64,000 nt of DNA from a virus. Location of the stretch: positions 32,001-96,000 of IMG/VR virus record IMGVR_UViG_3300005617_000004. The stretch is one strand, 5' to 3'. A program made the position numbers and the translations under genes. Under the pieces are notes generated by a model that did no database searches, was not told the DNA's origin, and worked only from the letters and a program-made list of their open reading frames with translations. This document shows positions 7,631-56,695 of the stretch, one piece after another. How positions within the stretch are numbered: position 1 is the stretch's first letter; every line of letters starts with the position of its first letter.

Positions 7631-8050
7631 TTACTTCTTCAGCAGCCAGAAACCCAGGCCGACCGCCGCAGCGCTGAGCGCGATGGTCTTGACCGACACC
7701 GGCCCGACGATCGGCAGGTTCACCAGCGTGTCGAGCCCGTCGAACTGCATCTCATCCTCGTAGTCGGCGAGGTCGCCAGCCTTGTGGAAGAACCCCTTCT
7801 CGAGGTTGTGGGGCTGCGCGGCGTCGATGCGCTTCGGCTGACGATGGAACAGCGGGGTGCCGTTCGGGATCTTCAGCGACCGGCCGATGGCCGGCGTCAG
7901 GTTCCGCACGTCGCCGCCCGCCATCCGGGCCATCGGAGCGAGGCCCGGCGCGCGGGTGACCCGGGTGCGCATCTGCTGGACGGTGGTCAATTCGCCGGCG
8001 CCGCGGTTGGCGAACATTCCGTCGAGCTCGTAGGACATGTCACGTTGCAT
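7631..8050 (-). CDS. Tail-anchored membrane protein
   Basis: C-terminal TM + KK; FDGLD. Confidence 0.75.
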   Translation of the reverse strand: MQRDMSYELDGMFANRGAGELTTVQQMRTRVTRAPGLAPMARMAGGDVRNLTPAIGRSLKIPNGTPLFHRQPKRIDAAQPHNLEKGFFHKAGDLADYEDEMQFDGLDTLVNLPIVGPVSVKTIALSAAAVGLGFWLLKK

Positions 8051-8084
8051 GGAGAGATCCTTGGTGGAGGTGAGCCGGGTCGGC

Positions 8085-8753
8085 TTACTTGCGCTTCTTC
8101 TTGAGCACGATGTAGCCGACCGCGAGCGCTGCGACGGCCAGGGCGCCGTAGGTGATCAGGGGGTGCGCCCCCATGTTGGTCAGCATCGCCTGGGACCGCA
8201 TCTGGTCGGCGCGGGCCTGTTCGGCACGGGCCAGGGCAGCGGCGGCCTCAGCCTGGGCGGCGGACGTCTTGGCGCCGTAGATGCTGCCCGTGATGCCGCC
8301 AGCGGTGGTGCCAGCAGCCTGGATGGCCTGCAGCCACGTCGGGCTGCCGGCCGGAGCCGGGGTGGTGGCGACCGGATCGGCGCCCATGCCCGGCACGAAG
8401 CCCGGGTCCCGGGCCAGACGGCGCACGGCATGCTTCTGGCCACGCGGGGTGCTGAGGTCGCCCATGCCGGGCATGAAGCCCGGGTGCGCGGCGTCCTGGG
8501 TCACCTGGAAGGCGCGGACCTTGCCGCCCTGGTGGCGGGTACCGCGGGGGCGCTGGGTCAGCAGGCCACGCGAGCGGACGCGGGGGTCCGGACCGGCCAT
8601 GCCGCCGGAGGCCTGGGTGTAGACCTCCACGTCGCGATCGTCCTCGAACGGGTTGTCGCTCTCGGCTTCCACCGAGATGGTGTTGCCGTAGGGCTGCAGG
8701 TCGATCGGCTGCGAGCGGTACTTCTGGTGGACATGGACGCGGGGAGCGGGCAT
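8085..8753 (-). CDS. Tail-anchored membrane protein
   Basis: PGF(M/V)PGMG twice; C-terminal TM + KKKRK. Confidence 0.8.
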   Translation of the reverse strand: MPAPRVHVHQKYRSQPIDLQPYGNTISVEAESDNPFEDDRDVEVYTQASGGMAGPDPRVRSRGLLTQRPRGTRHQGGKVRAFQVTQDAAHPGFMPGMGDLSTPRGQKHAVRRLARDPGFVPGMGADPVATTPAPAGSPTWLQAIQAAGTTAGGITGSIYGAKTSAAQAEAAAALARAEQARADQMRSQAMLTNMGAHPLITYGALAVAALAVGYIVLKKKRK

Positions 8754-8756
8754 GGG

Positions 8757-11324
8757 TTATTTCCTGGTGAAGAGGTAGAGGCCGATGCCGGCCAGGGCAA
8801 GCGTGCCCAGGCTCATGCCGCCGAGGGTGAGGCCTTCGATCGGCGGCTCTTCGGCGGAGGATTCCTCCTCGCCTTCGCCACCGTCTTCGGTCATGTCGCC
8901 GTCATCGGCATCGTCGAACAGGTCGGTGTTGTCCATGTCGACGGCGTCGCGGCTGGACGACCGGCGTGCACGGCTGCGGAGCGGCTGCGGAGCTTCTTCG
9001 CTGAACGACTGGTCGCCCTCGCCTTCGTCGGCGTAGGTCGCGTCATCGTTGGTGCCCTCGGTCGCATCGTCGCCTGCGGGCTCAGCGCCACCTTCGTCCA
9101 TGAACGTGCCGCCAGCTTCTTCGCCGCTGGCGCTCGAGCTTTCACCCTCGTCGGCGAACGGGTCGATGCCGCTCTCGCTGACGTCCTGGGTGTCGGTGAA
9201 CGACTGGCCTTCACCGCCGCCGGCGGCCATCGCCTGCTCGTCGGCCATGGCGCTCTCCGACTCCATGGCGGGGCCCATGTCTTCGGGGCCGAAGTCTTCG
9301 CCGGGCATCGTGCCGGCGCTGGCGTTCGGGTCGAACTCGGACTCGCCGGGCTGCGGGATGATCGACTGGTCGGCCGGGGAGGTCGATGCCGGAGGCGTGG
9401 TGCTGGTCGGGGTCACGACCGAGGCACTGGCATGCGCAGGCGAGGAGCCGCCGCCCTTGGACCGGTTCATGTACTTCGACAGGGGCCGGTGGATGGTCTC
9501 CTTGGTCAGCAGCGACGCGCCGCCGGTGGCGACGCCCAGCATCAGGTTCCGGAACCGCTTGTTCTTGGCCACCTGCTTGACGGTGGCGCCGGCCTTCTTG
9601 ACCTGCTGCTTCACCTGGGTGTCGATCTTCTTGACCTGACTGTGGACCGACTGCACGGCCTTCTTGGGGGCGGAGGCGACGCGCCTCACGGCCTGGGACA
9701 CGTTGCTGAAGAACCCGGCCAGCCCGTCGTCCGAGCCGTCGTCACTGAAGATGACCTTGCCGCTCTGGTCGCGCACCACCGCACCGCCCGGCATCACGCC
9801 GGCGATCGGGTTCTTGGGCTGCCGCGCCGCTGGGGGCGCTGCCCGGAACTCCGACGCCTTCAGGAACGTCGGGTGCTTGCTGATGACGGTCAGGGTGTCG
9901 ACCTTCTCCTGCGCGTCGATGCGCGGGTGGTCGGCCGGCTCAGCTTCCGCCACCGCGTCGATGACGCCCAGGTAGCAGTCCATGTGGTCGAGCGCGCCGA
10001 AGGCGGTGCGCATGGCCTGCTGCCGGAACGGGCTGTTGCCGGCGCACTGCTCCGCGAGGCGCTGGGCCTTGGCGGCAACCTGATGCGCCAGGGCTTCGAC
10101 CTGCTTGGCGGCCGCGACCTTGTGGTCGATGGTCACGTCGCCCAGGCCGAACAGGAACCCGGCGTTCTGCTCCATGCGCACGACTCGGCCCGAGGCCTTC
10201 TTGGCGCGCTGCTTGGTGTACGCGGCGGCCGCGACCACCCGGTGCAGCGGGTCGGTCTTGCCGCCCACGAGGTGGTGCTGGCTGGCGCGCAGGGCGGGGC
10301 CGCTCAGGTCGGTGATGTAGTCGGACAGGCCCATCAGCTCGCCGACGGTCGGCGCCTTGTTGGCCTTGGCCGGGCGCTTGCGGTCGACGATGGTGACGAT
10401 GTTGGGGCCGCGCTGACGGCGGGGCTGGTCCATCGGGGCGCTGATGTTGCGCACCGGCTTCGCTTCGTGCAGGTAGCTGGTCAGCACCTTCTCGGCGCGG
10501 TTGGTGGTCGGGCCGCGGCTGTACAGGTCGTAGGCCGGCGCCGCCTGCATCGGGTTGATGGTGGCCGCCCGGTTGAACATGTCGTCGAGCTCGTCGCCCC
10601 ACTCGGTCAGCCGCTTGGTGTTGACGATGGTGCCGCGTGAGCCGGTGTCGACGTACCGCGACTTGAGCACGCGGCCGACCTGCGACGCCTCGATCTCATC
10701 AGCCGGGCTGAAGTACGAAGGGCCACGAGCGTATCCGTTGAGTGCCATGGTGCCTAGTCCTGCGAGGTGTGGATAGGTTCGCTTGGCTTTCACCCTATCA
10801 TCCGGGGCCGCTTTGCCTAGCGGCCACTCGCGCATGATCGGGTCCGCGGCGATGGTGGTGCCCGCATACCGGTGCTTGCCGGGCGGGATCTCGGCATGCA
10901 GGTACACGTGGGAGAAATGGTTGGGCACGAGGCCGATGACCACCGGGTAGCTGCGCAGGCCCAGGCTGCCCAGCAGGGCCATCTCGGCGATGGTCAGGTC
11001 GTCGCAGTCCCCCGCCTTCGAGTTCAGCAGCGTCTCTTCCGGGTAGGACAGGGTCTCCTGGCCGACCGGGTCCTTGACGTACCGGATCTGGTCGCGCACG
11101 TAGTTGTGGACCGCTTCGAGCATCCCGAAGTAGTCTTTATTGGCGACGCCGGCACTGTTGATGATGTTGATGGCCAGGGCGCGGATCTTGGGGGACCGGG
11201 CGCCCCACTGGCCCTTCGCCATCTCGCTCATCAGCTGCACGGTCGTGCCGACGCTGGCGTCCTGACCTTCGGGCAGGTTGCTGTACTGGACGTCGATGTT
11301 GCCGTCGGCGAGGTGCATGCGCAT
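8757..11324 (-). CDS. Transglutaminase-like (papain-fold) cysteine enzyme fused to a long multi-segment, acidic, tail-anchored region; candidate maturation protease
   Basis: IRYVKDP...GDCDD...HVY...AADP Cys-His-Asp triad; LAGLG right after the domain; C-terminal TM + RK. Confidence 0.8.
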   Translation of the reverse strand: MRMHLADGNIDVQYSNLPEGQDASVGTTVQLMSEMAKGQWGARSPKIRALAINIINSAGVANKDYFGMLEAVHNYVRDQIRYVKDPVGQETLSYPEETLLNSKAGDCDDLTIAEMALLGSLGLRSYPVVIGLVPNHFSHVYLHAEIPPGKHRYAGTTIAADPIMREWPLGKAAPDDRVKAKRTYPHLAGLGTMALNGYARGPSYFSPADEIEASQVGRVLKSRYVDTGSRGTIVNTKRLTEWGDELDDMFNRAATINPMQAAPAYDLYSRGPTTNRAEKVLTSYLHEAKPVRNISAPMDQPRRQRGPNIVTIVDRKRPAKANKAPTVGELMGLSDYITDLSGPALRASQHHLVGGKTDPLHRVVAAAAYTKQRAKKASGRVVRMEQNAGFLFGLGDVTIDHKVAAAKQVEALAHQVAAKAQRLAEQCAGNSPFRQQAMRTAFGALDHMDCYLGVIDAVAEAEPADHPRIDAQEKVDTLTVISKHPTFLKASEFRAAPPAARQPKNPIAGVMPGGAVVRDQSGKVIFSDDGSDDGLAGFFSNVSQAVRRVASAPKKAVQSVHSQVKKIDTQVKQQVKKAGATVKQVAKNKRFRNLMLGVATGGASLLTKETIHRPLSKYMNRSKGGGSSPAHASASVVTPTSTTPPASTSPADQSIIPQPGESEFDPNASAGTMPGEDFGPEDMGPAMESESAMADEQAMAAGGGEGQSFTDTQDVSESGIDPFADEGESSSASGEEAGGTFMDEGGAEPAGDDATEGTNDDATYADEGEGDQSFSEEAPQPLRSRARRSSSRDAVDMDNTDLFDDADDGDMTEDGGEGEEESSAEEPPIEGLTLGGMSLGTLALAGIGLYLFTRK

Positions 11325-11332
11325 GGATCCTA

Positions 11333-12526
11333 TCAGCGGGCGCGGCGTTTGCTACGGCGACGGCGGGGGTTGGTGCTGATCTCCTTGTAGTGCCGCGAGA
11401 CCCACCGGTATGGCGTGTTCCGGTCGTTGTCGCGGTAGGTCTTCATCTGCCGACGGACGTCCTCCTTGGTATCCTCTTCGAGGACGTCATCCCAGCCGGA
11501 GCCCGGGTAGTAGGCCTGCAGGACGTAAGCCTTCTTGTTCAGCTTGACGCCCTTCGGATTCCGCCGACGACGCGGGTTGGTCTGCGTCTTCCAGTCGTAC
11601 TGGGGGCCGCCGACGTACTCGGCGGCGATGCCGGCGATCTGGTTGATCAGCGTGCTGCTCTGCGTCTTGGGCCAGTCACGCGTCATCTGGTTGAAGACAC
11701 GCTCCAGCGCCTGCTGCGGCTTCGAGTAGCCGCCGCTGCTGGGGCCCTGGCTTTTGGCTTCCCAGGTTTTCACGCCGCCAGGGCCGCGCGCGGTGACCGC
11801 GACGAAGGCCGTAGCGTTGGCGTTGCGCCACGTGGCGATGGTGACATGCGCAGGGCCGCGGGTGAACTCGTGCTCGGTCAGGTCGCGGGGCTTGGGGTTG
11901 CGGCAGGTCTTGCGGCCGCGGCGCGGATTGCGGCTTTGGCGCGCCTCGAGCTTGCGTGCGATGGCGGACATCAGCCGGTTGTACGCATCGACATCGCCGC
12001 GCTTGCGCGCATTGGTCACGGCGTGCAACTCTTCGTTGGTGGCGACGCCCTGGCGCTCCGCAGCAAGGAGTACCTTGCGCGCGTCAGCAGACGCGGTGAT
12101 CTCGCGGGGATTCCGCCGACGGCTCTTCGCGCGCCGCGCCTTCCGCCGGCGCCGAGGGTTGCGGCTGTACGGCGCCGACAGTGTCTTGCCGAGAGGCCAG
12201 CTCTGGTTGCTGGTCCGTGCGAACTTGCGCGATCGGTTTCCCGGTTCGCCCGGAAAGACGGTGCTGTCGTACCACTCGCGGTCGGTGCGGTACGCCGGTG
12301 CAGGATATGCGCGTGAAGAGCCACCCTGCGCCTGAAAAGACTGCTTTGCCCAGTCAGGGACGTGTTCCATCGTGAACCGGTGGGGGAACGCACTCTTCGC
12401 GCGCTCGAAGGACCACTTGCGCTCGGGATTCCGCCGACGGCTCTTCGCGCGCCGCGCCTTCCGCCGGCGACGCGGGTTCGACATGCAGAGGGCGCCAACG
12501 CCGGCGAGGATGAGGGATCCGAGCAT
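11333..12526 (-). CDS. NP/Arg-linker polyprotein carrying four small domains
   Basis: N-terminal hydrophobic segment; 9 NP motifs flanking Arg-rich linkers. Confidence 0.85.
   Translation of the reverse strand: MLGSLILAGVGALCMSNPRRRRKARRAKSRRRNPERKWSFERAKSAFPHRFTMEHVPDWAKQSFQAQGGSSRAYPAPAYRTDREWYDSTVFPGEPGNRSRKFARTSNQSWPLGKTLSAPYSRNPRRRRKARRAKSRRRNPREITASADARKVLLAAERQGVATNEELHAVTNARKRGDVDAYNRLMSAIARKLEARQSRNPRRGRKTCRNPKPRDLTEHEFTRGPAHVTIATWRNANATAFVAVTARGPGGVKTWEAKSQGPSSGGYSKPQQALERVFNQMTRDWPKTQSSTLINQIAGIAAEYVGGPQYDWKTQTNPRRRRNPKGVKLNKKAYVLQAYYPGSGWDDVLEEDTKEDVRRQMKTYRDNDRNTPYRWVSRHYKEISTNPRRRRSKRRAR
12107..12469. repeat. Identical 45-bp direct repeat (12107-12151 and 12425-12469)
   Basis: GGGATTCCGCCGACGGCTCTTCGCGCGCCGCGCCTTCCGCCGGCG, encoding the RRRKARRAKSRRRNP linker. 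Confidence 0.9.
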
Positions 12527-12529
12527 GGG

Positions 12530-13279
12530 TTACTTCCTGCGACGCGGGTTGGACTTGAGCTTGGTCAGGCGCGCACGGTCGAGAGTGGTCACGCGCCCGC
12601 GGGCGTACTCGCCCACCGCCGGGACGTCGTCCCACTTCACCGGCACCCAGACGCGCGGGTCTTCGTTCACGTCGAGCCAGTCCTTGACCGGCTGCACCGT
12701 CCCGATGGCGCCGGCTGGCTTCTTCATCCGCACGCGCGTGCCGGCGGCGAACGCGGGCTTGTGATTGTCGCGGCCGAAGAAGTCGTTCGGGTTCCTGCGC
12801 GGCCGCAGCCTGCGCGCGACCCGCTTCTTGCCGCTCCGCGCTGCCGACCGGCGCGCAGTGTTGAAGGCGATGGCGGCCGCTCTCTTGGGCTTGTAGCCTT
12901 CCCGGACGAGCTTGCGGATGTTGGCGCTGATGGTGGAGCTGCTGTAGCCGCGCTTGAGGGGGTTGGTCTTTGGGGCCCGCGCGGCGCGACGGTCAGCTTC
13001 CTTGATAGCGCGTGCCAGACCGGCTTCGCCCGAGAAGTCGATGACCGCGACCCGCACTGCGTGCGTACCATTCTGCTTGTTGACTTCGTAGCCCTTACGC
13101 GACCCGTAGGTGGCGTGGGCAACCCAGAAGTCGCCGTTCTCGTAGAGGATGCGGGGGCCCGGGTTCTTGCGCCGCTTCACTCGCCGGCGTCGGTGTGGAC
13201 GACGCGCCTTCGGATTCTTGCGCGTCTTACCGCGCAGAACCAGATAGCCCGCAGTAGCGGCGACGAGGAGGGGGAGCAT
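12530..13279 (-). CDS. NP/Arg-linker polyprotein carrying three small domains
   Basis: N-terminal hydrophobic segment; 5 NP motifs. Confidence 0.85.
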   Translation of the reverse strand: MLPLLVAATAGYLVLRGKTRKNPKARRPHRRRRVKRRKNPGPRILYENGDFWVAHATYGSRKGYEVNKQNGTHAVRVAVIDFSGEAGLARAIKEADRRAARAPKTNPLKRGYSSSTISANIRKLVREGYKPKRAAAIAFNTARRSAARSGKKRVARRLRPRRNPNDFFGRDNHKPAFAAGTRVRMKKPAGAIGTVQPVKDWLDVNEDPRVWVPVKWDDVPAVGEYARGRVTTLDRARLTKLKSNPRRRK

Positions 13280-13293
13280 GTGCTCAGCCTTGA

Positions 13294-13327
13294 GCAGGGC
13301 CGATGCGAGAACGCAGCGCGGCCCTGC
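13294..13327. promoter_or_regulatory. Intergenic stem-loop inside operon
   Basis: GCAGGGCCG/CGGCCCTGC arms with inner TGCG-AGAA-CGCA. Confidence 0.55.
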
Positions 13328-13345
13328 AGAGGATCAGGTCAGCGA

Positions 13346-13990
13346 TCAGCGACGCGAGACGCGGTGACCCTTGCGGCCACGACGGCGGTTCGCCGCCCAG
13401 GCCTTGCGCAGGTTCGCCATGCGCTCGGCGCGGGTCCACATGCGGGCCAGCCGGCGGCCGGCGGCGCGACGCTTGGCCTTGGTCGAGGCCGAAGCCTTCT
13501 TCCGGCGGAACACGACCGTGTGGCGGCCGCCCTTACGGAAGGTCACGCGGATGCCGCGCTTGCTGGTGGAACGATGCGCCTTGCGGCGGGATTTGCGGCG
13601 CTTGGCCATGTGATGTCTCCGGTGAGGGTTGGACTTGGTGCCGGCGGCGTCTTTGACGTCGTCGAGGTAGTAGTCGGCAAGGGCCTTGGCGACTTCCTTG
13701 CGGTCGGCGGGCGAAAAGGAGCCGTACGACCCGTTGCCGGAGCCGCCATGCTCCTTGGTGTACTTCTGCGCGCCCCAGTTGGCGGCGTACAACCAACCCT
13801 TGACGGCGAGCGCAGGGTCGTACGTGCCCTTCTTCATCTTCTTGGCGAGATTCTTGATGATGGGCTGTATGCTCTGTCGGTACATGTCACCGTCGTTGAC
13901 GATGAATAGCTCGAGCTCGCGTGCCTCGTCGCTCGGGTTGCGACGCCGGCGCCGTGACTTCCTGCGCTTCGGGGCGGCGAAGAACCCCAT
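13346..13990 (-). CDS. NP/Arg protein: one globular domain plus protamine-like tail
   Basis: RRRNP-SDEARELELFIVNDGDMYRQ...-KSNP then R/K-rich tail. Confidence 0.85.
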   Translation of the reverse strand: MGFFAAPKRRKSRRRRRNPSDEARELELFIVNDGDMYRQSIQPIIKNLAKKMKKGTYDPALAVKGWLYAANWGAQKYTKEHGGSGNGSYGSFSPADRKEVAKALADYYLDDVKDAAGTKSNPHRRHHMAKRRKSRRKAHRSTSKRGIRVTFRKGGRHTVVFRRKKASASTKAKRRAAGRRLARMWTRAERMANLRKAWAANRRRGRKGHRVSRR

Positions 13991-13993
13991 GGC

Positions 13994-14494
13994 TTACTTC
14001 CGGGCCCGGCGCGCAGCGCGGGCGCTGATCTTGCGGACGACGCGGCGGCTCACCTTGCGACGGCCCTTGCGGACCTTGATGCGGCCGACGCGGAACCACT
14101 TGCCCTTGCGCTTGAACACGCTGCCGACGCGCTTGCCCTTCGGGGGCTTCGGCAGCTTGCGGCGACGGACGGTGTGACGGGCCTTGCGGACGCGACGACC
14201 TTTGCGGCGAGCCATGGAACGCTTCTTTCCACGGCGCTTGCCGTGCTTGCGAGGGTTGGACTTGAGCAGCCGACGCAGCGCGACGCGCTGGGCGGCGGTG
14301 AGATGGCCGGGGTTGTGGTGCCAGCGCCAGAACGCGAGCCGCGAGGCGGCGGCGCCCGCAGAAACCCGGCGGCCACGACGCGCGACGCGCTTGCCGCGAC
14401 GCTTCGGATTACGGCGGCGCACGATGCGCACCGTGGCGATCTCGTTCTCGTTCGGGCGGGCGTTGCGACGATAACGGCGGTAGTGGCGTCTCAT
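13994..14494 (-). CDS. Protamine-like DNA-condensing core protein
   Basis: Extremely R/K-rich, 3 NP motifs. Confidence 0.8.
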   Translation of the reverse strand: MRRHYRRYRRNARPNENEIATVRIVRRRNPKRRGKRVARRGRRVSAGAAASRLAFWRWHHNPGHLTAAQRVALRRLLKSNPRKHGKRRGKKRSMARRKGRRVRKARHTVRRRKLPKPPKGKRVGSVFKRKGKWFRVGRIKVRKGRRKVSRRVVRKISARAARRARK

Positions 14495-14543
14495 GGGTGT
14501 GTCACCTTAGCGAACGAGGGATTGTTTTCCAGCACATACTGCT

Positions 14544-15005
14544 TCACCGGTAACGTTCTTCGAGCGCGTTCTTGTTCTGGGCCTTCAGCAAGTAGACGGT
14601 GCCGACCGTCAACACGCCGATGGCGGTCATGGCCAGCAGGCGCTTGTTGTCGCGCAACGTTGCCGGCAGTGCCTGCATCGTGCCGGAGAACTTGTCGCGC
14701 ATCTTCGGGTTGGACGACATCACCAGCGCAGAACCGGCAACGCCCACCACCGCACCGATCAGGGCCAGCGACTTGCCGGTGGCGTCCTGCGTCGCCTGTG
14801 CGGCGGTCAGCTTCATGGTGCCGGGCTGCTCGTTGGTGAAGATGGCACGCGCGGCCGGGTTGGCGCGCAGCAGCATCAGGCCGCCCAAGATGCCGACGGT
14901 CGCGCCGCCCAGCGACAGGACTCGGCCCCAGGCTTCACGCTTGGCGTCGTCGGCGGTCAGCTTCAGGGTGACCGGCTTGGTGAACTCGGGAGCCAGCAGT
15001 CCCAC
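14544..15005 (-). CDS. Membrane protein, three hydrophobic segments
   Basis: First two TM segments each followed by NP. Confidence 0.75.
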   Translation of the reverse strand: MGLLAPEFTKPVTLKLTADDAKREAWGRVLSLGGATVGILGGLMLLRANPAARAIFTNEQPGTMKLTAAQATQDATGKSLALIGAVVGVAGSALVMSSNPKMRDKFSGTMQALPATLRDNKRLLAMTAIGVLTVGTVYLLKAQNKNALEERYR

Positions 15006-15008
15006 GGG

Positions 15009-15194
15009 TTACTTCCGCTTGGACCGGCGGCGCCACAGCCAGTAGCCGCCCCCAACCAGTGCCACCATCGTCAGGTAGCGCGTAACGCCGGGTACGCTGA
15101 TGCCGCGGTGAACCACCAGGGGCTTCAACGTGACCGGGTCGACTTCGGTCACCGTCTGGGTGATGCCGATCTGATCAAGGAAAGGCGTCGGCAC
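15009..15194 (-). CDS. Small tail-anchored membrane protein
   Basis: C-terminal TM + RRRSKRK. Confidence 0.75.
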   Translation of the reverse strand: MPTPFLDQIGITQTVTEVDPVTLKPLVVHRGISVPGVTRYLTMVALVGGGYWLWRRRSKRK

Positions 15195-15197
15195 GGG

Positions 15198-15545
15198 TTA
15201 CTTCTTGAAGATCAGGAAGCCGATGCCTGCAGCGACCGCGACGAGGCCGAGGTTCTTGCCGCTGAGCAGCGAACCGATGTCGAACGCGCCCATGCCGGGC
15301 ATGTAGCCGCCAGCCAGCGCGTCCTGGTACCCGACCTGCACTTCGGTCTGGTCCATGTCCTCGACGAGGCCCAGGCCGCTGAAGCCGGGCAGGAACTCAC
15401 CGCCGGCACGCGGCAGCTTGCGGGCCACCGGCGACCGCAGCCGACGATCGGCGCGGGGGTCCAGGTTCCGCGCCGCGGGCGCGCGCAGGTGCTTCACCTG
15501 CGGGGACGACAGACGGCGCGCAGGAGCGGCATTGATGGACTGCAT
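15198..15545 (-). CDS. Tail-anchored membrane protein
   Basis: FSGLG, MPGMG; C-terminal TM + KK. Confidence 0.75.
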   Translation of the reverse strand: MQSINAAPARRLSSPQVKHLRAPAARNLDPRADRRLRSPVARKLPRAGGEFLPGFSGLGLVEDMDQTEVQVGYQDALAGGYMPGMGAFDIGSLLSGKNLGLVAVAAGIGFLIFKK

Positions 15546-15572
15546 GGGGTTGATCCTGGACAGGGTTGCTGG

Positions 15573-15600
15573 AGGGTATGTCAGTTTGGCCGAAACTCAA
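15573..15600 (-). promoter_or_regulatory. Promoter
   Basis: TTGAGT-N16-TACCCT. Confidence 0.5.
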
Positions 15601-15609
15601 GCGTGCGCA

Positions 15610-16761
15610 TCAACGGAAGAACAGGAACGCGCCGATGGCGGCCGCGGTGCCGAGCAGGCCGGCAGCGCCGGTCGACTCGGCGGGCTTGCCCTGCGCCGTG
15701 TTGATGACGCCGGTAACCTGATCGCTGGAGGTGAACGCCGCGTCGACCATCTTGTCGCGGGCCTTGAGCTCCTGTGCGCGCTGGGCGAACTGCGGATCGC
15801 CGCGCAGCCCCTTGGCGATGTTGACCCGCACCGCCTCGTGGTACTCGGGGGTCGCGGTCATCGCCAGGGTTTTGTCGCGGAACTCATCCATGTCGCGCTT
15901 GGCGGCGGCGACCAGGGACCCGGTCTTGTTGCGGATCTCGTGCACCGCCTGCTGGCCGCTGAACGTCCGGCCGATGGCGTCGATGTCTTCGGCGAACATG
16001 TGGTACGGGTTCTGCAGCTTCTTCTCGAACATCAGGGCGACGCGCTTGCTGTTGCGGTCCCAGGCGTCGTTCCACTTCTTGGCCTTGGCTTCGCCCTTCT
16101 TGTCGCCGACCAGCCGCGCACCGGCAGCGCCGGTCTTCAGGACCGCGTCACCGACGACTTGCACCGACTTGGTCTGCGCCTTCGCGACGGTGCCGGTCAG
16201 GAACTTCTTGATACCCAGGGCGCCGAGCCCTTCGAGCAGCTGGCCGGACGCCGCCAGCTGCTCGGCAGCCGCGTACTCCTGCTCCCCCACCTGATTCTTG
16301 GCCGCTTGCACGGTGGCCTGCGTGCGGCGCCCGTAGCCTTGGATCTCGTCCTTGGCGGCCTCGATCATCTTGTGGATCTGCTTCTTGGCGATCGACCCAC
16401 CGACCAGGGTGCCGATGGCAATCAAGGCCGCCACGACCCAGCCGACGATGGGCACCACGCTGGCGGCGGTCGCTGCGGTCATGCCGGCCGCCATGGCGGC
16501 TCCGGTGGCGACCGCAACGCCCGCAGCGGTGTCGAACAGCACACCCGCCGCGACGCTGACCGCCATCTGGGCCACCGCCTGTTCGGTTGCGGCCTCGATC
16601 ATGCGCTTCTTGAGCAACGCCGCTTGGTCGTTCATGCTGGTCAGGGCCAGCTGCGGTTCCTGCGCGACCTCATCGGCACCCAAGAACTCCGGCTCGAGAT
16701 ACCGCCGGTAGCGCGGCAGCATCAGCGAACGGCCCGCGGGGTCGACGAGGTACTGCGGCAT
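15610..16761 (-). CDS. Helical membrane protein (possible DNA-entry/membrane-fusion protein)
   Basis: Long Ala-rich hydrophobic hairpin (VPIVGWVVAALIAIG), LEGLG, C-terminal TM. Confidence 0.75.
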   Translation of the reverse strand: MPQYLVDPAGRSLMLPRYRRYLEPEFLGADEVAQEPQLALTSMNDQAALLKKRMIEAATEQAVAQMAVSVAAGVLFDTAAGVAVATGAAMAAGMTAATAASVVPIVGWVVAALIAIGTLVGGSIAKKQIHKMIEAAKDEIQGYGRRTQATVQAAKNQVGEQEYAAAEQLAASGQLLEGLGALGIKKFLTGTVAKAQTKSVQVVGDAVLKTGAAGARLVGDKKGEAKAKKWNDAWDRNSKRVALMFEKKLQNPYHMFAEDIDAIGRTFSGQQAVHEIRNKTGSLVAAAKRDMDEFRDKTLAMTATPEYHEAVRVNIAKGLRGDPQFAQRAQELKARDKMVDAAFTSSDQVTGVINTAQGKPAESTGAAGLLGTAAAIGAFLFFR

Positions 16762-17201
16762 TACTTGCGCCGCAGGAACAGGTACAGGGCGCCGAGGGCG
16801 ACCGCGCCGCCGAGCACGAGCGCCGGGGTCGGGATGGTGGTGCCGCCGACCTGAAGGCCGCCACCAGCGTCCTGCGCGGTGATCTGAGCTTGTGCGGCGG
16901 CAGCGGCGGCCTTGACCGCGGCGGCTTCCGCACGCTTCGCGTCCTCTTCCTTGGTGCGGGCGCGCTTCTCGTCCATCTGCTGCTGACGCAGGGTGTAGGC
17001 GGTCGACCCGACGGTGGTCAGTGCTTGGATCAGGGGCCCGATCGACTCGACCCAGCCGAGGTCTTCACCGGGCAGGTTCGACGGGGCTTCAATGTTGCCG
17101 CGTCGGATGATCAGGCCCGTGTTGGTGGTCGGCCACACGCTGTCGCCGCCATGACGTGACAGGGACCGCGTCATGAACGCCGGGGTATTGCGATAGCCCA
17201 T
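16761..17201 (-). CDS. Tail-anchored membrane protein, first gene of structural operon
   Basis: C-terminal TM + RRK; promoter TTGCCT-N16-CACACT-N7-ATG at 17209-17236. Confidence 0.75.
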   Translation of the reverse strand: MGYRNTPAFMTRSLSRHGGDSVWPTTNTGLIIRRGNIEAPSNLPGEDLGWVESIGPLIQALTTVGSTAYTLRQQQMDEKRARTKEEDAKRAEAAAVKAAAAAAQAQITAQDAGGGLQVGGTTIPTPALVLGGAVALGALYLFLRRK

Positions 17202-17237
17202 GGTGCGCAGTGTGCGCAGTTATGGAGCAAAGGCAAG

Positions 17238-17597
17238 CTACCCCTCGGGGTATTCCTCGTTCTCCTCCTTCAGCACCTCGTCAATGTTCTCGTCCGCACC
17301 GGCTTCGGTGTCGACCGCGTCGCTCAGGTCCGAGTCGAAGGTCGGGTTGAGCTCCTGCTCGTTGGCGGCCGCGCCCTGGGGTGGCGGCCGCTCACCCTCG
17401 ACGTCCACCGCTTGGTAGCAGGCGGCGCACTCGATGATCGCGTCGCCGTTCTTGTCCTGGACGGTGATGGCGGTGCCACGAGGCACTTGGGTCGGCGGCA
17501 GGGCTGCCCGCAGGCCGCAGATGCAGACCCATTCGATACGGGTGTCGGGCGGCGGCATGCGCCGGACGGGCTTATCCAGCAGGTGGTAGATCGTCAT
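17238..17597 (-). CDS. Zinc-finger protein with acidic tail
   Basis: CICG...CAAC. Confidence 0.7.
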   Translation of the reverse strand: MTIYHLLDKPVRRMPPPDTRIEWVCICGLRAALPPTQVPRGTAITVQDKNGDAIIECAACYQAVDVEGERPPPQGAAANEQELNPTFDSDLSDAVDTEAGADENIDEVLKEENEEYPEG

Positions 17598-56254: not shown

Positions 56255-56695
56255 TCAGTGCGCCGGCGTCTGCTGCGGGGCCTTCACGCGCCGCTCGCGC
56301 GTGCCGGCTTCCATCAGCGGGATACCCGCCTCGGTCGGGACGTAGATCACGTCGTTGCGGCCTTCGTGCAGGTTGTTGATCCACAGGTAGTGCAGGTACA
56401 GCTCGTTGTTCTCGAGCGACTTGCCGATGATCTCGTTGGCCTGCGCCACGCCGCGAGCGCGGGCCACCTCGGCTTCGGCCAGCATCTTGGCGGAGTCGAG
56501 CTTCGCCTGTGCCTCCAGCACCGCCACGCGGCGCGTGCTCTCGGCCTTCATCAGGTCGCCCTGGCCTTCCTTGTCCTTCAGATACACGCTGTAGGAGGGG
56601 CAGCCGGTCAGGCACCCGATGATCAGGCCCAGCACCAGGACGATGGTCAGGGTAATGGTGATCTCGCCTTCGGCGCGACGGGGGAGGTTCGGCAT
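56255..56695 (-). CDS. Membrane protein, band-7/SPFH-related coiled coil
   Basis: RARGVAQAN.IIG.SL..N..YL.YLWI...IYVPTE. Confidence 0.75.
   Translation of the reverse strand: MPNLPRRAEGEITITLTIVLVLGLIIGCLTGCPSYSVYLKDKEGQGDLMKAESTRRVAVLEAQAKLDSAKMLAEAEVARARGVAQANEIIGKSLENNELYLHYLWINNLHEGRNDVIYVPTEAGIPLMEAGTRERRVKAPQQTPAH

What the first reader, a model, noticed from the sequence alone, without database searches (positions are those of the whole stretch)
11333..14494. NP/Arg-linker cargo polyproteins: a candidate system for loading effector domains into the virion and releasing them by cleavage
Seen: four adjacent genes contain 19 (S/R/K/T/H)-N-P motifs (about 27 across the operon), placed at the borders between Arg-rich linkers and about eight unrelated 40-110 aa globular domains. 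Two of the genes start with a hydrophobic anchor. From memory (unverified), several of these domains occur as free-standing small genes in other phages (HRFTMEHVPDWA..., YVLQ..Y..GWDD..., ELELFIVNDGDMY...). One reads TN-PLKRGYSSSTISANI...AAAIA, and its free-standing relatives begin MPLKKG, so cutting N|P would recreate their natural N-terminus. Established: Asn-Pro bonds can self-cleave (FlhB/YscU NPTH). Inference: the linkers condense DNA and act as packaging tags, the anchor ties the chain to the viral membrane, and cleavage frees protamine-like peptides plus effectors (for example anti-defence proteins) delivered with the genome.
Basis: partly seen in the sequence, partly recalled or inferred. 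Interest (0 to 1): 0.92.

Follow-up and report, generated by a model that had tools for sequence, protein, structure and literature searches.

The report
Asn-Pro-seamed arginine-linked modular viral proteins
Four neighbouring genes of an uncultured 110-kb soil virus string small, swappable protein modules together with arginine-rich linkers that always begin and end with Asn-Pro; the format is real and shared by a whole virus lineage, but nothing yet shows that the seams are cut.

Summary
Genes A-D (11333-14494, minus strand) carry 19 Asn-Pro (NP) pairs against 2.7 expected, and the pairs sit exactly where Arg-rich linkers meet about eight small modules. A and B start with a hydrophobic anchor.

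The same format occurs in every relative I found. These are viral contigs, many of about 95-110 kb, that share a transglutaminase-fold membrane protein. Across 69 homologues there are 289 NP pairs. Anchors, linkers and a few basic core modules are conserved; the other modules differ from virus to virus. Contigs from other metagenomes that are 97-99% identical in the flanks lack B3, carry a replaced B1 and skip A2, each time with breakpoints in the Arg/NP linkers.

Modules A1, A3, B2 (phrog_2423) and C1 have free-standing relatives whose ends match the NP borders.

Cleavage is not shown. AlphaFold starts the three resolved helices at linker seams of protein A exactly on the Pro, so NP may be a helix cap. 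The neighbouring enzyme resembles both cysteine proteases and cell-wall isopeptidases.

Best reading (about 0.5): uncut, DNA-binding, membrane-tethered carrier chains for exchangeable modules. Cutting at N|P is about 0.3.

The scan has reported this phenomenon before on other genomes (e1-5328175, e1-5360282, e1-5993893, e1-5344159).

The parts
11333..12526 (-). Gene A, 397 aa: anchor, linker, A1, linker, A2, linker, A3, linker, A4, NP-Arg tail; net charge +57
   Evidence: AF2 pLDDT is 97 for A1, about 92 for A2 and about 80 for A3.
12479..12526 (-). A hydrophobic N-terminal anchor (MLGSLILAGVGALCMS)
   Evidence: KD15 of 2.12. Conserved in dozens of homologues. Its DNA is 87% identical to L007, against 72.5% for the neighbouring enzyme gene.
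12425..12478 (-). A linker 1 (NP-RRRRKARRAKSRRR-NP)
   Evidence: AF2 helix 18-31 starts at P18.
12161..12424 (-). Module A1 (HRFTMEHVPDW family)
   Evidence: More than 100 clusters of free-standing 80-120-aa homologues cover residues 36-122. Phage genes in BDU-MI-1 and Suzuki.
12107..12160 (-). A linker 2: same 18 aa as linker 1, 52/54 nt identical
   Evidence: 92% DNA identity to L007 linker DNA.
11930..12106 (-). Module A2 (three-helix unit)
   Evidence: AF2. Residues 138-200 are skipped from NP to NP in a contig of run X2.
11579..11893 (-). Module A3 (WRNANATAF...SQGPSSGGYSKP)
   Evidence: Recurs at different positions in more than 20 other polyproteins and free-standing as P0134. Weak PUR-alpha/Whirly-like fold hits only.
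11372..11554 (-). Module A4 (YVLQAYYPGSGWDD)
   Evidence: Found in other polyproteins: P0040, P0042, P0071, P0078, P0098.
11336..11371 (-). A C-terminal NP-Arg tail (NPRRRRSKRRAR)
   Evidence: A contig of run X2 has 145 nt in place of 16 nt inside it.
12530..13279 (-). Gene B, 249 aa: anchor, linker, B1, B2, B3, NP-Arg tail; net charge +46
   Evidence: Orthologues keep the anchor and B2 and vary the modules between.
12965..13159 (-). Module B1
   Evidence: Weak phrog_20712 match, E 1e-4. Residues 37-103 are replaced by 207 unrelated nt in run X3.
12794..12964 (-). Module B2 with its NP seam and Arg tail (NP-LKRGYSSSTISANIRKL...)
   Evidence: phrog_2423, E 1.3e-13, profile positions 2-47 of 52. 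Relatives lie in head-morphogenesis modules of tailed phages.
12551..12787 (-). Module B3
   Evidence: Residues 161-247 (RRNP...SNPRR) are absent in a contig of run X3 that is about 99% identical in the adjacent aligned blocks. Shared with P0200.
13346..13990 (-). Gene C, 214 aa: Arg head ending in NP, C1 (ELELFIVNDGDMY), NP, very basic C2; net charge +48
   Evidence: C1 lies behind anchors in other viruses and is free-standing as P0183. C2 is a separate 76-aa gene in L008.
13994..14494 (-). Gene D, 166 aa, 43% Arg+Lys, three NP; conserved core pieces (RNARPNENEI..RRRNP, AARLxxWRWHHNP, mini-module, GSVFKRKGKWFR tail); net charge +69
8757..11324 (-). Adjacent 855-aa transglutaminase-fold protein with a C-terminal membrane helix; hallmark of the lineage and candidate (unproven) seam protease
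   Evidence: PF01841, 26.3 bits against a cut-off of 23. H139 and D161 are invariant and C107 nearly so (at least 90%) in 42 sequences. Foldseek hits: 3isr, LapG, TgpA, PNGase, PeiW/PeiP.
4317..5150 (-). 277-aa multi-helix membrane protein with an NP/Arg head (…SRANPRRRKHRTSRRNP…)
14544..15005 (-). 153-aa multi-pass membrane protein; an NP follows each of two hydrophobic helices and is conserved in relatives

Best explanation
Genes A-D encode a lineage-specific 'beads on a string' format for strongly basic proteins. They lie in the late, membrane-protein-rich gene block of an uncultured 109.5-kb virus.

Each protein alternates short Arg/Lys-rich segments with small, independently folding modules. 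The basic segments most likely form DNA-binding helices. Each basic segment is bracketed by Asn-Pro, which acts as a combined helix stop and helix start (N-cap Asn with N1 Pro; C-cap Asn with C' Pro). This keeps linker and module folding independent.

Two chains (A, B) are fixed by an N-terminal hydrophobic helix. C and D are soluble, protamine-like core proteins.

A small set of pieces is conserved across the lineage: the anchors, the linkers, B2/phrog_2423, C1, C2 and the D pieces. All other modules are cassettes taken from the pool of small phage accessory genes. They are gained, lost or replaced by recombination inside the repetitive linker DNA, even between near-identical strains.

Inferred function: the chains neutralise and tether the genome at the viral membrane. 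They also carry a strain-specific set of ready-made small proteins into the particle, and so into the next host cell.

Shown here: the format, its conservation, module exchange at the seams, and free-standing relatives of modules.

Inferred: DNA binding, location in the virion, delivery into the host, and that the chains can work uncut.
For: Motif statistics:
- 19 NP against 2.75 +/- 1.56 expected.
- 91 NP in 5,277 aa of 23 proteins from six viruses, and 289 NP in 69 homologues. 38-40% of Asn are followed by Pro. SP, TP, DP and GP are not enriched.

Linkers as capped helices:
- AF2 with a 96-row alignment starts helices exactly at P18, P124 and P140, and ends them just before the next Asn.
- Asx at N-cap, Pro at N1 (15% of caps) and Pro at C' (14% of helix ends) are standard helix-end motifs (PMC4515027).

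NP in places where cutting is unlikely:
- After hydrophobic helices of a multi-pass membrane protein, conserved in relatives.
- In the Arg head of a multi-helix membrane protein.

Module exchange:
- Only 11 module families are shared among six viruses; about 40 segments are unique.
- Against L007, the only DNA similarity is in anchor and linker (87-92%), core modules, and the enzyme gene (72.5%).
- Contigs 97-99% identical in the flanks lack B3, replace B1 and skip A2, with breakpoints in the linkers.
- The two 18-aa linkers in A are 52/54 nt identical.
- The rare AAT codon is used at 6 of 11 linker-end Asn, against 10% genome-wide.

Linker and NP are one unit:
- C1 has RRNP or xRNP upstream in all 32 polyprotein contexts, and no NP upstream in the other 13 homologues, which lack the RRNP seam.

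Virion link:
- phrog_2423 relatives sit between the MuF-like gene and the capsid gene, or are fused to the N-terminus of a prohead protease, in tailed phages.
- No strong minus-strand terminator-like site lies between 17239 and 4298 (the only one, at 7410-7393, has 5 stem pairs), and the neighbouring genes encode tail-anchored membrane proteins.

Charge:
- Net +57, +46, +48 and +69 for A, B, C and D.
Against: - No experiment or proteomic data bear on location, DNA binding or processing.
- The strict use of Asn, never Ser, Thr, Asp or Gly, is more than helix capping alone requires. It suggests that something reads or reacts with Asn.
- Linker helices have only moderate pLDDT (67-80), and AF2 tends to make Arg/Lys/Ala runs helical.
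- Topology is unsettled. If the membrane forms as in PRD1, a polyprotein on the cytoplasmic face would lie between membrane and capsid, not with the DNA.
- No capsid, portal, terminase or packaging ATPase was recognised in the genome, so 'virion operon' itself rests on gene content.
Confidence: 0.5

Rival explanations
1. True polyproteins. The chains are cut at every N|P, either by a dedicated enzyme (candidate: the adjacent transglutaminase-fold Cys-His-Asp protein) or by Asn cyclisation promoted in the assembled core. Cutting releases P-(Arg)n-N protamine-like peptides and free modules that enter the host with the DNA.
For: - Asn is invariant at seams although Ser, Thr, Asp or Gly would cap helices as well.
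- NP borders coincide with the ends of free-standing homologues.
- Cutting N|P before B2 would give the PLKRG start seen in free-standing phrog_2423 proteins.
- When C2 is a separate gene it starts MP-RRR..RRNP, which mimics a cut linker.
- Asn-Pro cleavage has precedents in FlhB/YscU. Five of the ten asparagine-lyase families are viral coat proteins, some of which release peptides that stay in the capsid (PMC3207474). RsgI is another example (PMC10328401).
- The neighbouring enzyme keeps its C107/H139/D161 triad (H139 and D161 invariant, C107 at least 90% conserved), is conserved in all relatives, and in some relatives hosts an intein exactly at the catalytic Cys. LapG-type proteases are among its best fold matches.
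- In adenovirus, pX/mu joins an Arg-rich peptide to a hydrophobic peptide between protease sites (from my own knowledge).
Against: - No cleavage data exist.
- Known Asn lyases need a folded active site with a second catalytic residue. Here the seams lie in linkers predicted as helix ends, and NPTH is absent.
- X-Pro bonds are poor substrates for most endopeptidases (established knowledge).
- The enzyme's fold matches cell-wall endoisopeptidases (PeiW/PeiP) as well as proteases.
- NAP and NVP variants of the seam occur before the mini-module.
- NP also follows membrane helices of a multi-pass protein, where cutting would fragment it.
- Modules at an N-terminus can lack any leader (P0012, P0058).
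Confidence: 0.3
2. Not virion components. The chains act inside the infected cell as membrane-anchored nucleic-acid-binding scaffolds, for example to hold replicating or condensing viral DNA at the membrane or to compact the host nucleoid. The modules act there.
For: - No recognised capsid or packaging gene ties the block to particles.
- A1-type modules sit among small early or accessory genes in tailed phages.
- With basic residues following the anchor, the chain would stay on the cytoplasmic side (inference from the positive-inside rule).
Against: - Co-oriented, tightly packed operon with about ten small tail-anchored membrane proteins and a conserved membrane-anchored enzyme.
- B2 relatives lie in head-assembly modules.
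- The 196-aa neighbour at 3552-4142 has only weak leads (score 0.78) to PM2 coat-protein domains.
Confidence: 0.12
3. The linkers matter mainly as DNA. Repetitive Arg-codon/NP-codon tracts are recombination joints that let the virus shuffle small genes into expressed reading frames, and the peptide they encode is only tolerated.
For: - Breakpoints of all observed indels and replacements lie in linker DNA.
- Linker DNA is more conserved than neighbouring genes.
- Near-identical linker copies within A.
- Rare AAT codon shared by linker ends.
Against: - NP codons vary (AAC/AAT; CCG/CCC/CCT) while the dipeptide is invariant.
- Linker length (5-19 aa) and sequence vary, but NP and the Arg content do not.
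- Distant relatives at 39-41% identity keep the grammar without DNA similarity.
Confidence: 0.08

Closest known systems
Polyvalent proteins of phages and conjugative elements (Iyer, Burroughs, Anand, de Souza, Aravind 2017; PMC5512222)
   Same: Many unrelated domains in one polypeptide of a mobile element, extensive domain mosaicism, predicted transfer with the DNA, and possible proteolytic release.
   Different: Those are large proteins built from catalytic or anti-restriction domains and tied to MuF, portal and terminase systems. Here the modules are 40-110 aa with no recognised catalytic fold. They are joined by a strict NP/Arg linker grammar that the paper's text does not mention ('linker' occurs 0 times). 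The genome has no recognisable portal or terminase.
Adenovirus core precursors (pVII, pX/mu) processed by adenain
   Same: Arg-rich DNA-condensing peptides made as precursors; pX joins an Arg-rich peptide to a hydrophobic one; a cysteine protease is encoded by the virus (from my own knowledge).
   Different: The adenain site is (M/I/L)XGX-G, not NP. Adenain belongs to clan CE, whereas this enzyme has a transglutaminase fold. Adenovirus precursors carry no exchangeable modules.
T4 capsid-targeting sequence and internal proteins (IPI-III, Alt)
   Same: Short peptide tags load non-structural proteins into the head for injection with the DNA (Alt is described in PMC5512222; the rest is from my own knowledge).
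   Different: The T4 tag is a single N-terminal peptide cut at L/I-x-E by gp21 in an HK97-type head. Here basic tags flank every module on both sides and end in NP.
Asparagine peptide lyases (FlhB/YscU N|PTH, reovirus mu1, nodavirus, picobirnavirus; PMC3207474)
   Same: Cleavage chemistry at Asn, twice at an Asn-Pro bond, mostly in virion proteins.
   Different: Each is a single site inside a conserved fold with a partner residue. Here there are many sites in variable linkers, with R/G/K/L after NP instead of TH.
S/T-P-basic DNA-binding turns (SPKK of sperm histones, SPRRR of the hepatitis B core tail) and Asx/Pro helix caps
   Same: A small polar residue plus Pro heads an Arg/Lys run that binds nucleic acid. 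Asx at N-cap with Pro at N1 is a standard helix start (PMC4515027; SPKK and SPRRR are from my own knowledge).
   Different: Here the polar residue is always Asn, and the dipeptide also closes the basic run.

Membership tests
Polyvalent proteins (Iyer et al. 2017) | 2-15 unrelated domains in one polypeptide of a phage or plasmid, with mosaic architectures | tested here: met
   A has 4 modules and B has 3. Architectures are permuted across homologues.
Polyvalent proteins (Iyer et al. 2017) | Domains are recognised effector or enzymatic families (ArdC, MTase, ART, peptidase, ParB and others) | tested here: not met
   No Pfam family reaches its cut-off on any module. No PDB fold match with E <= 1e-3.
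Polyvalent proteins (Iyer et al. 2017) | Context of a portal/terminase/MuF packaging system or a conjugation system | tested here: not met
   None among the families listed for 113 proteins: PHROGs top 25 of 60, Pfam 23.
Asparagine peptide lyases, YscU/FlhB type (MEROPS N6) | NPTH motif in a four-strand sheet / four-helix domain | tested here: not met
   Residues after NP are R, G, K, L or S. Seams lie at helix ends of linkers.
Asparagine peptide lyases (any family) | Self-cleavage at the Asn | not testable with these tools
   Needs protein chemistry.
phrog_2423 (module B2) | Match to the family profile over its length | tested here: met
   E 1.3e-13, profile positions 2-47 of 52.
Transglutaminase-like cysteine protease superfamily (PF01841), 855-aa neighbour | Profile match above cut-off, Cys-His-Asp triad, papain-like core fold | tested here: met
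   26.3 bits against 23. H139 and D161 are invariant and C107 nearly so (at least 90%) in 42 sequences. Foldseek E 4e-5 to 3isr and 2e-4 to LapG.
Transglutaminase-like cysteine protease superfamily, as the seam protease | Cuts A-D at NP | not testable with these tools
   The fold equally matches PeiW/PeiP cell-wall endoisopeptidases and PNGase.
Adenovirus-type core maturation | (M/I/L)XGX-G sites flanking Arg-rich peptides and a clan CE protease | tested here: not met
   The seams are NP. No adenain-like family appears in the Pfam or PHROGs lists.

The most novel reading that the evidence does not exclude
NP is a new 'cut here' code. Once the chains are bound to DNA in the assembling core, every Asn-Pro seam is broken, either by an Asn-directed activity of the transglutaminase-fold enzyme or by DNA- or assembly-promoted Asn cyclisation. 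This yields protamine-like P-(Arg)n-N peptides that condense the 110-kb genome, plus a strain-specific mix of ready-made small proteins injected with it. The seam-flanked cassette format would make that mix rapidly exchangeable.
Probability: 0.3. Interest if true: 0.85.

Novelty: new variant of a known kind. Interest (0 to 1): 0.62.

Why it matters
This would be a compact, general way for a virus to load arbitrary small proteins into its particle: flank each module with an Arg-rich, NP-bounded linker. It would also let the virus swap modules by recombination in the linker DNA.

The carriers belong to a widespread lineage of uncultured viruses, many of about 100 kb, from soil, rhizosphere and groundwater. 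No capsid or packaging genes are recognisable in them, so these proteins are one of the few handles on how the particles are organised.

If the seams are cut, this would be a new processing code and possibly a new Asn-directed protease activity. If they are not cut, it is a clear natural example of a designed-looking linker grammar for modular proteins. The variable modules are candidates for first-minute host-takeover or counter-defence functions.

Tried and rejected
- Pfam on whole proteins and on nine separate segments: nothing above cut-off.
- PHROGs: only phrog_2423 is solid. phrog_20712, phrog_1411 and phrog_9469 are weak.
- tblastn of C against 50,697 phage records: no match.
- Foldseek (PDB, BFVD) and VIA-align wide on the AF2 model of A. 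No PDB match with E <= 1e-3. The best BFVD row is a 69-aa look-alike of 41% identity, probably an A1 homologue. A2 and A3 give only generic helical-bundle and alpha/beta hits with Z < 8. A1 and A4 were barely sampled by the wide search.
- PDB sequence search with the enzyme profile: none.
- Host: only a contig binned as a Planctomycetota MAG and one homologue on a 4.7-Mb contig. Neither was followed up.
- No RNA holder listed among sequencing runs.
- phrog_11227 'protease' lies in the early region (window 56291-56656) and is probably the Clp_N-type protein in the Pfam list (not mapped to it here), so I did not treat it as a maturation protease.
- A eukaryote-type 2A NPGP skip was considered and dropped: NPGP occurs only once, and 2A skipping is known only on eukaryotic ribosomes.
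- A lipobox reading of the anchor was dropped: the Cys is not conserved and position -1 is wrong.
- Complex prediction (enzyme plus linker) was not run. The tool's own guidance says enzyme-substrate pairs are rarely informative, and a pass would have moved my odds little.
- Literature searches for an NP/Arg linker grammar in phages found nothing.

Full report
**What the element is.** The window lies in a complete viral record of 109,520 bp: one contig, with direct terminal repeats, rated 100% complete. A scan of 113 predicted proteins against PHROGs and Pfam found replication and modification genes. These include SNF2 and UvrD helicases, a family A polymerase, methylases and HNH nucleases. None of the listed families (PHROGs top 25 of 60, Pfam 23) is a terminase, portal, HK97 capsid or tail protein. 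The only canonical Walker A motif belongs to the UvrD-like helicase.

The finding sits in a minus-strand run of genes from about 17200 to 7100. No strong terminator-like site interrupts this run; the only one inside it, at 7410-7393, has just 5 stem pairs. Most neighbouring genes encode small proteins that end in a membrane helix followed by basic residues.

**The observation.** A, B, C and D are the ORFs with the right codon bias (GC3 0.84-0.87). They contain 19 NP pairs. Shuffling gives 2.75 +/- 1.56, and never more than 10 in 20,000 trials. The rest of the proteome has 0.24 NP per 100 aa against 1.85 here.

The seams fall into two mirror classes:
- module-(S/T)-N-P-R-R-R-R at the start of a basic run;
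- R-R-N-P-module at its end.

Defining basic runs without reference to NP, NP is by far the commonest dipeptide immediately before (19 of 88) and after (21 of 77) a run in 23 proteins from six viruses. The NP codons vary, so selection acts on the peptide. A and B begin with 15-residue hydrophobic segments.

**Relatives.** The adjacent 855-aa protein found five related IMG/VR contigs. A profile of it then found two more distant contigs and one contig binned as a Planctomycetota MAG.

All of them carry, directly upstream of this gene, basic proteins with the same grammar. Splitting all of these proteins at N|P and clustering the pieces gave 11 shared families:
- the D head;
- the AARLxxWRWHHN piece;
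- a P(L/M)SxAEAxAL mini-module;
- the D tail;
- C1 and C2;
- B2;
- a few others.

About 40 pieces are unique to one virus. That includes all of A1-A4, B1 and B3.

A HMMER search of 1.84 billion representative proteins with A gave 229 hits. A1 matches more than 100 clusters of free-standing 80-120-aa proteins over residues 36-122. A3 and A4 recur at different positions in dozens of other anchor-plus-linker proteins. Searches with C and B showed two further things:
- C1 sits behind anchors in other viruses.
- B-type proteins keep the anchor and a C-terminal B2 plus Arg tail, with one to five variable modules between.

In 69 such homologues there are 289 NP. 38% of Asn are followed by Pro, linkers are 5-19 aa, and the median module is 72 aa. 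Many homologues lie on contigs of about 95-110 kb, so this is a lineage of similar-sized viruses.

**Module exchange at the seams.** Against the closest contig, L007, DNA similarity in the operon is confined to four kinds of sequence:
- the D head;
- the WRWHHNP piece, C1 plus C2, and B2;
- anchor and linker DNA of A, at 87-92% identity;
- the enzyme gene, at 72.5% identity.

The cargo modules show no similarity.

I then laid contigs from four other metagenomes (rhizosphere and groundwater) on 7000-17300. They are 97-99% identical over the flanking genes but differ in structure inside A and B:
- One contig lacks B residues 161-247, which is exactly NP-B3-NP.
- The same contig has 207 unrelated bases in place of B residues 37-103 (B1).
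- Another contig skips A residues 138-200, from NP to NP (A2).
- Another has 145 bases in place of 16 inside the A tail.

The two 18-aa linkers of A are 52/54 nt identical. The rare AAT codon marks 6 of 11 linker-end Asn, against 10% genome-wide. Modules are therefore cassettes exchanged by recombination in linker DNA.

**What the modules are.**
- B2 is phrog_2423 (E 1e-13), with its Pro at profile position 2.
- In tailed phages this family lies in the head-assembly module. In cyanophage KBS-S-2A it is a 50-aa gene between the MuF-like gene and the capsid gene. In Plectonema phage Lbo240-yong2 it forms the N-terminus of the annotated prohead protease. This is the best, though indirect, link between these chains and the particle interior.
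- A1 homologues in Bradyrhizobium phage BDU-MI-1 and Stenotrophomonas phage Suzuki sit among small genes of unknown function. They have no NP or Arg flanks, and their ends match the NP borders of A1.
- C1 has a free-standing 125-aa relative and whole-length structural look-alikes in phage protein clusters, with TM 0.80-0.84. I treat these as a lead only.
- AF2 folds A1 (pLDDT 97), A2 (about 92) and A3 (about 80) as separate domains.
- No fold search gave a convincing functional match. A3 has only weak PUR-alpha/Whirly-like rows.

'Effector' therefore remains a guess, supported only by the rapid turnover.

**Is NP a cut site?** I could not test cutting directly, so I weighed the indirect evidence.

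For cutting:
- Asn is never replaced by Ser, Thr, Asp or Gly.
- The borders equal natural protein ends.
- An N|P cut reproduces the natural start of B2.
- When C2 is a separate gene it begins MP-Arg...NP.
- Asn-Pro cleavage has precedents, several of them in virions.

Against cutting:
- In the AF2 model the three resolved helices at linker seams (linkers 1 and 2 and the start of A2) begin on the Pro, at P18, P124 and P140. Each linker helix stops just before the next Asn.
- Asx at N-cap, Pro at N1 and Pro at C' are standard helix-end motifs. NP can therefore serve as a combined stop and start.
- NP also follows membrane helices of a conserved multi-pass protein, and lies in the Arg head of another membrane protein.
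- NAP and NVP variants of the seam occur.
- Known Asn lyases need a folded active site.

The NP and the Arg run behave as one unit. C1 has RRNP-type seams in all 32 polyprotein contexts, and no NP upstream in the other 13 homologues, which lack the RRNP seam.

**The candidate enzyme.** Residues 20-185 of the 855-aa protein fold with pLDDT above 90. H139 and D161 are invariant and C107 nearly so (at least 90%) in a 42-sequence alignment. In L018 an intein-like insert sits exactly at the catalytic Cys, and several homologues carry intein families. The active site clearly matters.

Its best structural matches are a Cytophaga putative cysteine protease, LapG, TgpA, PNGase, and the PeiW/PeiP pseudomurein endoisopeptidases, which are virus-derived cell-wall enzymes. 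A role in cell-wall penetration is therefore as likely as core maturation.

**Verdict.** The format is real, strongly non-random, lineage-wide and cassette-like.

I put about 0.5 on uncut, DNA-binding, membrane-tethered carrier chains in which NP caps Arg helices. I put about 0.3 on true processing at N|P. The remainder goes to non-virion or purely DNA-level explanations.

The closest described concept is the polyvalent protein, but two of its three defining features are not met here. I found no paper describing this linker grammar.

The scan has reported the same phenomenon on other genomes.
- strain-level cassette indels with breakpoints at the seams;
- the helix-cap prediction for NP;
- the head-module context of phrog_2423;
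- the ambiguous fold affinities of the enzyme.

Noticed in passing
L018:8741-12883: The homologue of the 855-aa transglutaminase-fold protein carries an intein-like insert exactly at the catalytic motif (GDC|LAEGTRV...VVHN|CDD). Other homologues (P0217, P0232, P0248, P0321) have precomputed intein or LAGLIDADG families.
   Followed up: partly
L007:418-2091; L008:6249-8042; L011:6446-8278: Relatives have a 557-610-aa Cys-rich protein of unknown family inside the same operon. tblastn finds no counterpart anywhere in this 109.5-kb genome.
   Followed up: partly
window 8085-8753 and 15198-15545: Recurrent G-F/Y-M/V-P-G-M/F-G motifs (GFMPGMG, GFVPGMG, GYMPGMGAFD) in tail-anchored membrane proteins. 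They are conserved in relatives (DGFMPGFGAFD). This is the subject of another note on this genome (e1-6024467).
   Followed up: no
window 14544-15005: A 153-aa multi-pass membrane protein has NP right after two hydrophobic helices (LLRANPAAR, VMSSNPKMR). The positions are conserved in L008, L011 and L017.
   Followed up: partly
L024:3498-4877 (Plectonema phage Lbo240-yong2): A phrog_2423-like peptide (PLETGSSQGAIKANIQQLIGEGYKP...) forms the N-terminus of the annotated head maturation protease. In cyanophage KBS-S-2A it is a separate 50-aa gene after the MuF-like gene.
   Followed up: yes
whole genome G000: None of the families listed for 113 proteins (PHROGs top 25 of 60, Pfam 23) is a terminase, portal, HK97 capsid or tail family, and the only canonical Walker A motif is in the UvrD-like helicase. 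The 196-aa protein at 3552-4142 belongs to large viral clusters, with only a weak lead (0.78) to PM2 coat-protein P2 domains.
   Followed up: partly
window 11579-11893 (module A3): The four-strand-plus-helices model gives weak Foldseek rows to PUR-alpha, Whirly and PC4-type single-strand nucleic-acid binders (E 0.05-0.3).
   Followed up: no
genome 13623-14189 (outside the window, early region): A 188-aa protein starts MGKKRRNPTEEP. This is the same basic-NP head on a gene far from the late block.
   Followed up: no
window 13631-13933 (C1): Contigs of runs X2, X3 and X4 replace 75-134-nt stretches inside C1 with unrelated sequence of similar length. C1 therefore has hypervariable sub-regions as well as whole-module exchange.
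   Followed up: no
P0277: One homologue of the transglutaminase-fold protein lies on a 4.74-Mb NCBI contig. It is a possible integrated or co-assembled relative that could name a host.
   Followed up: no
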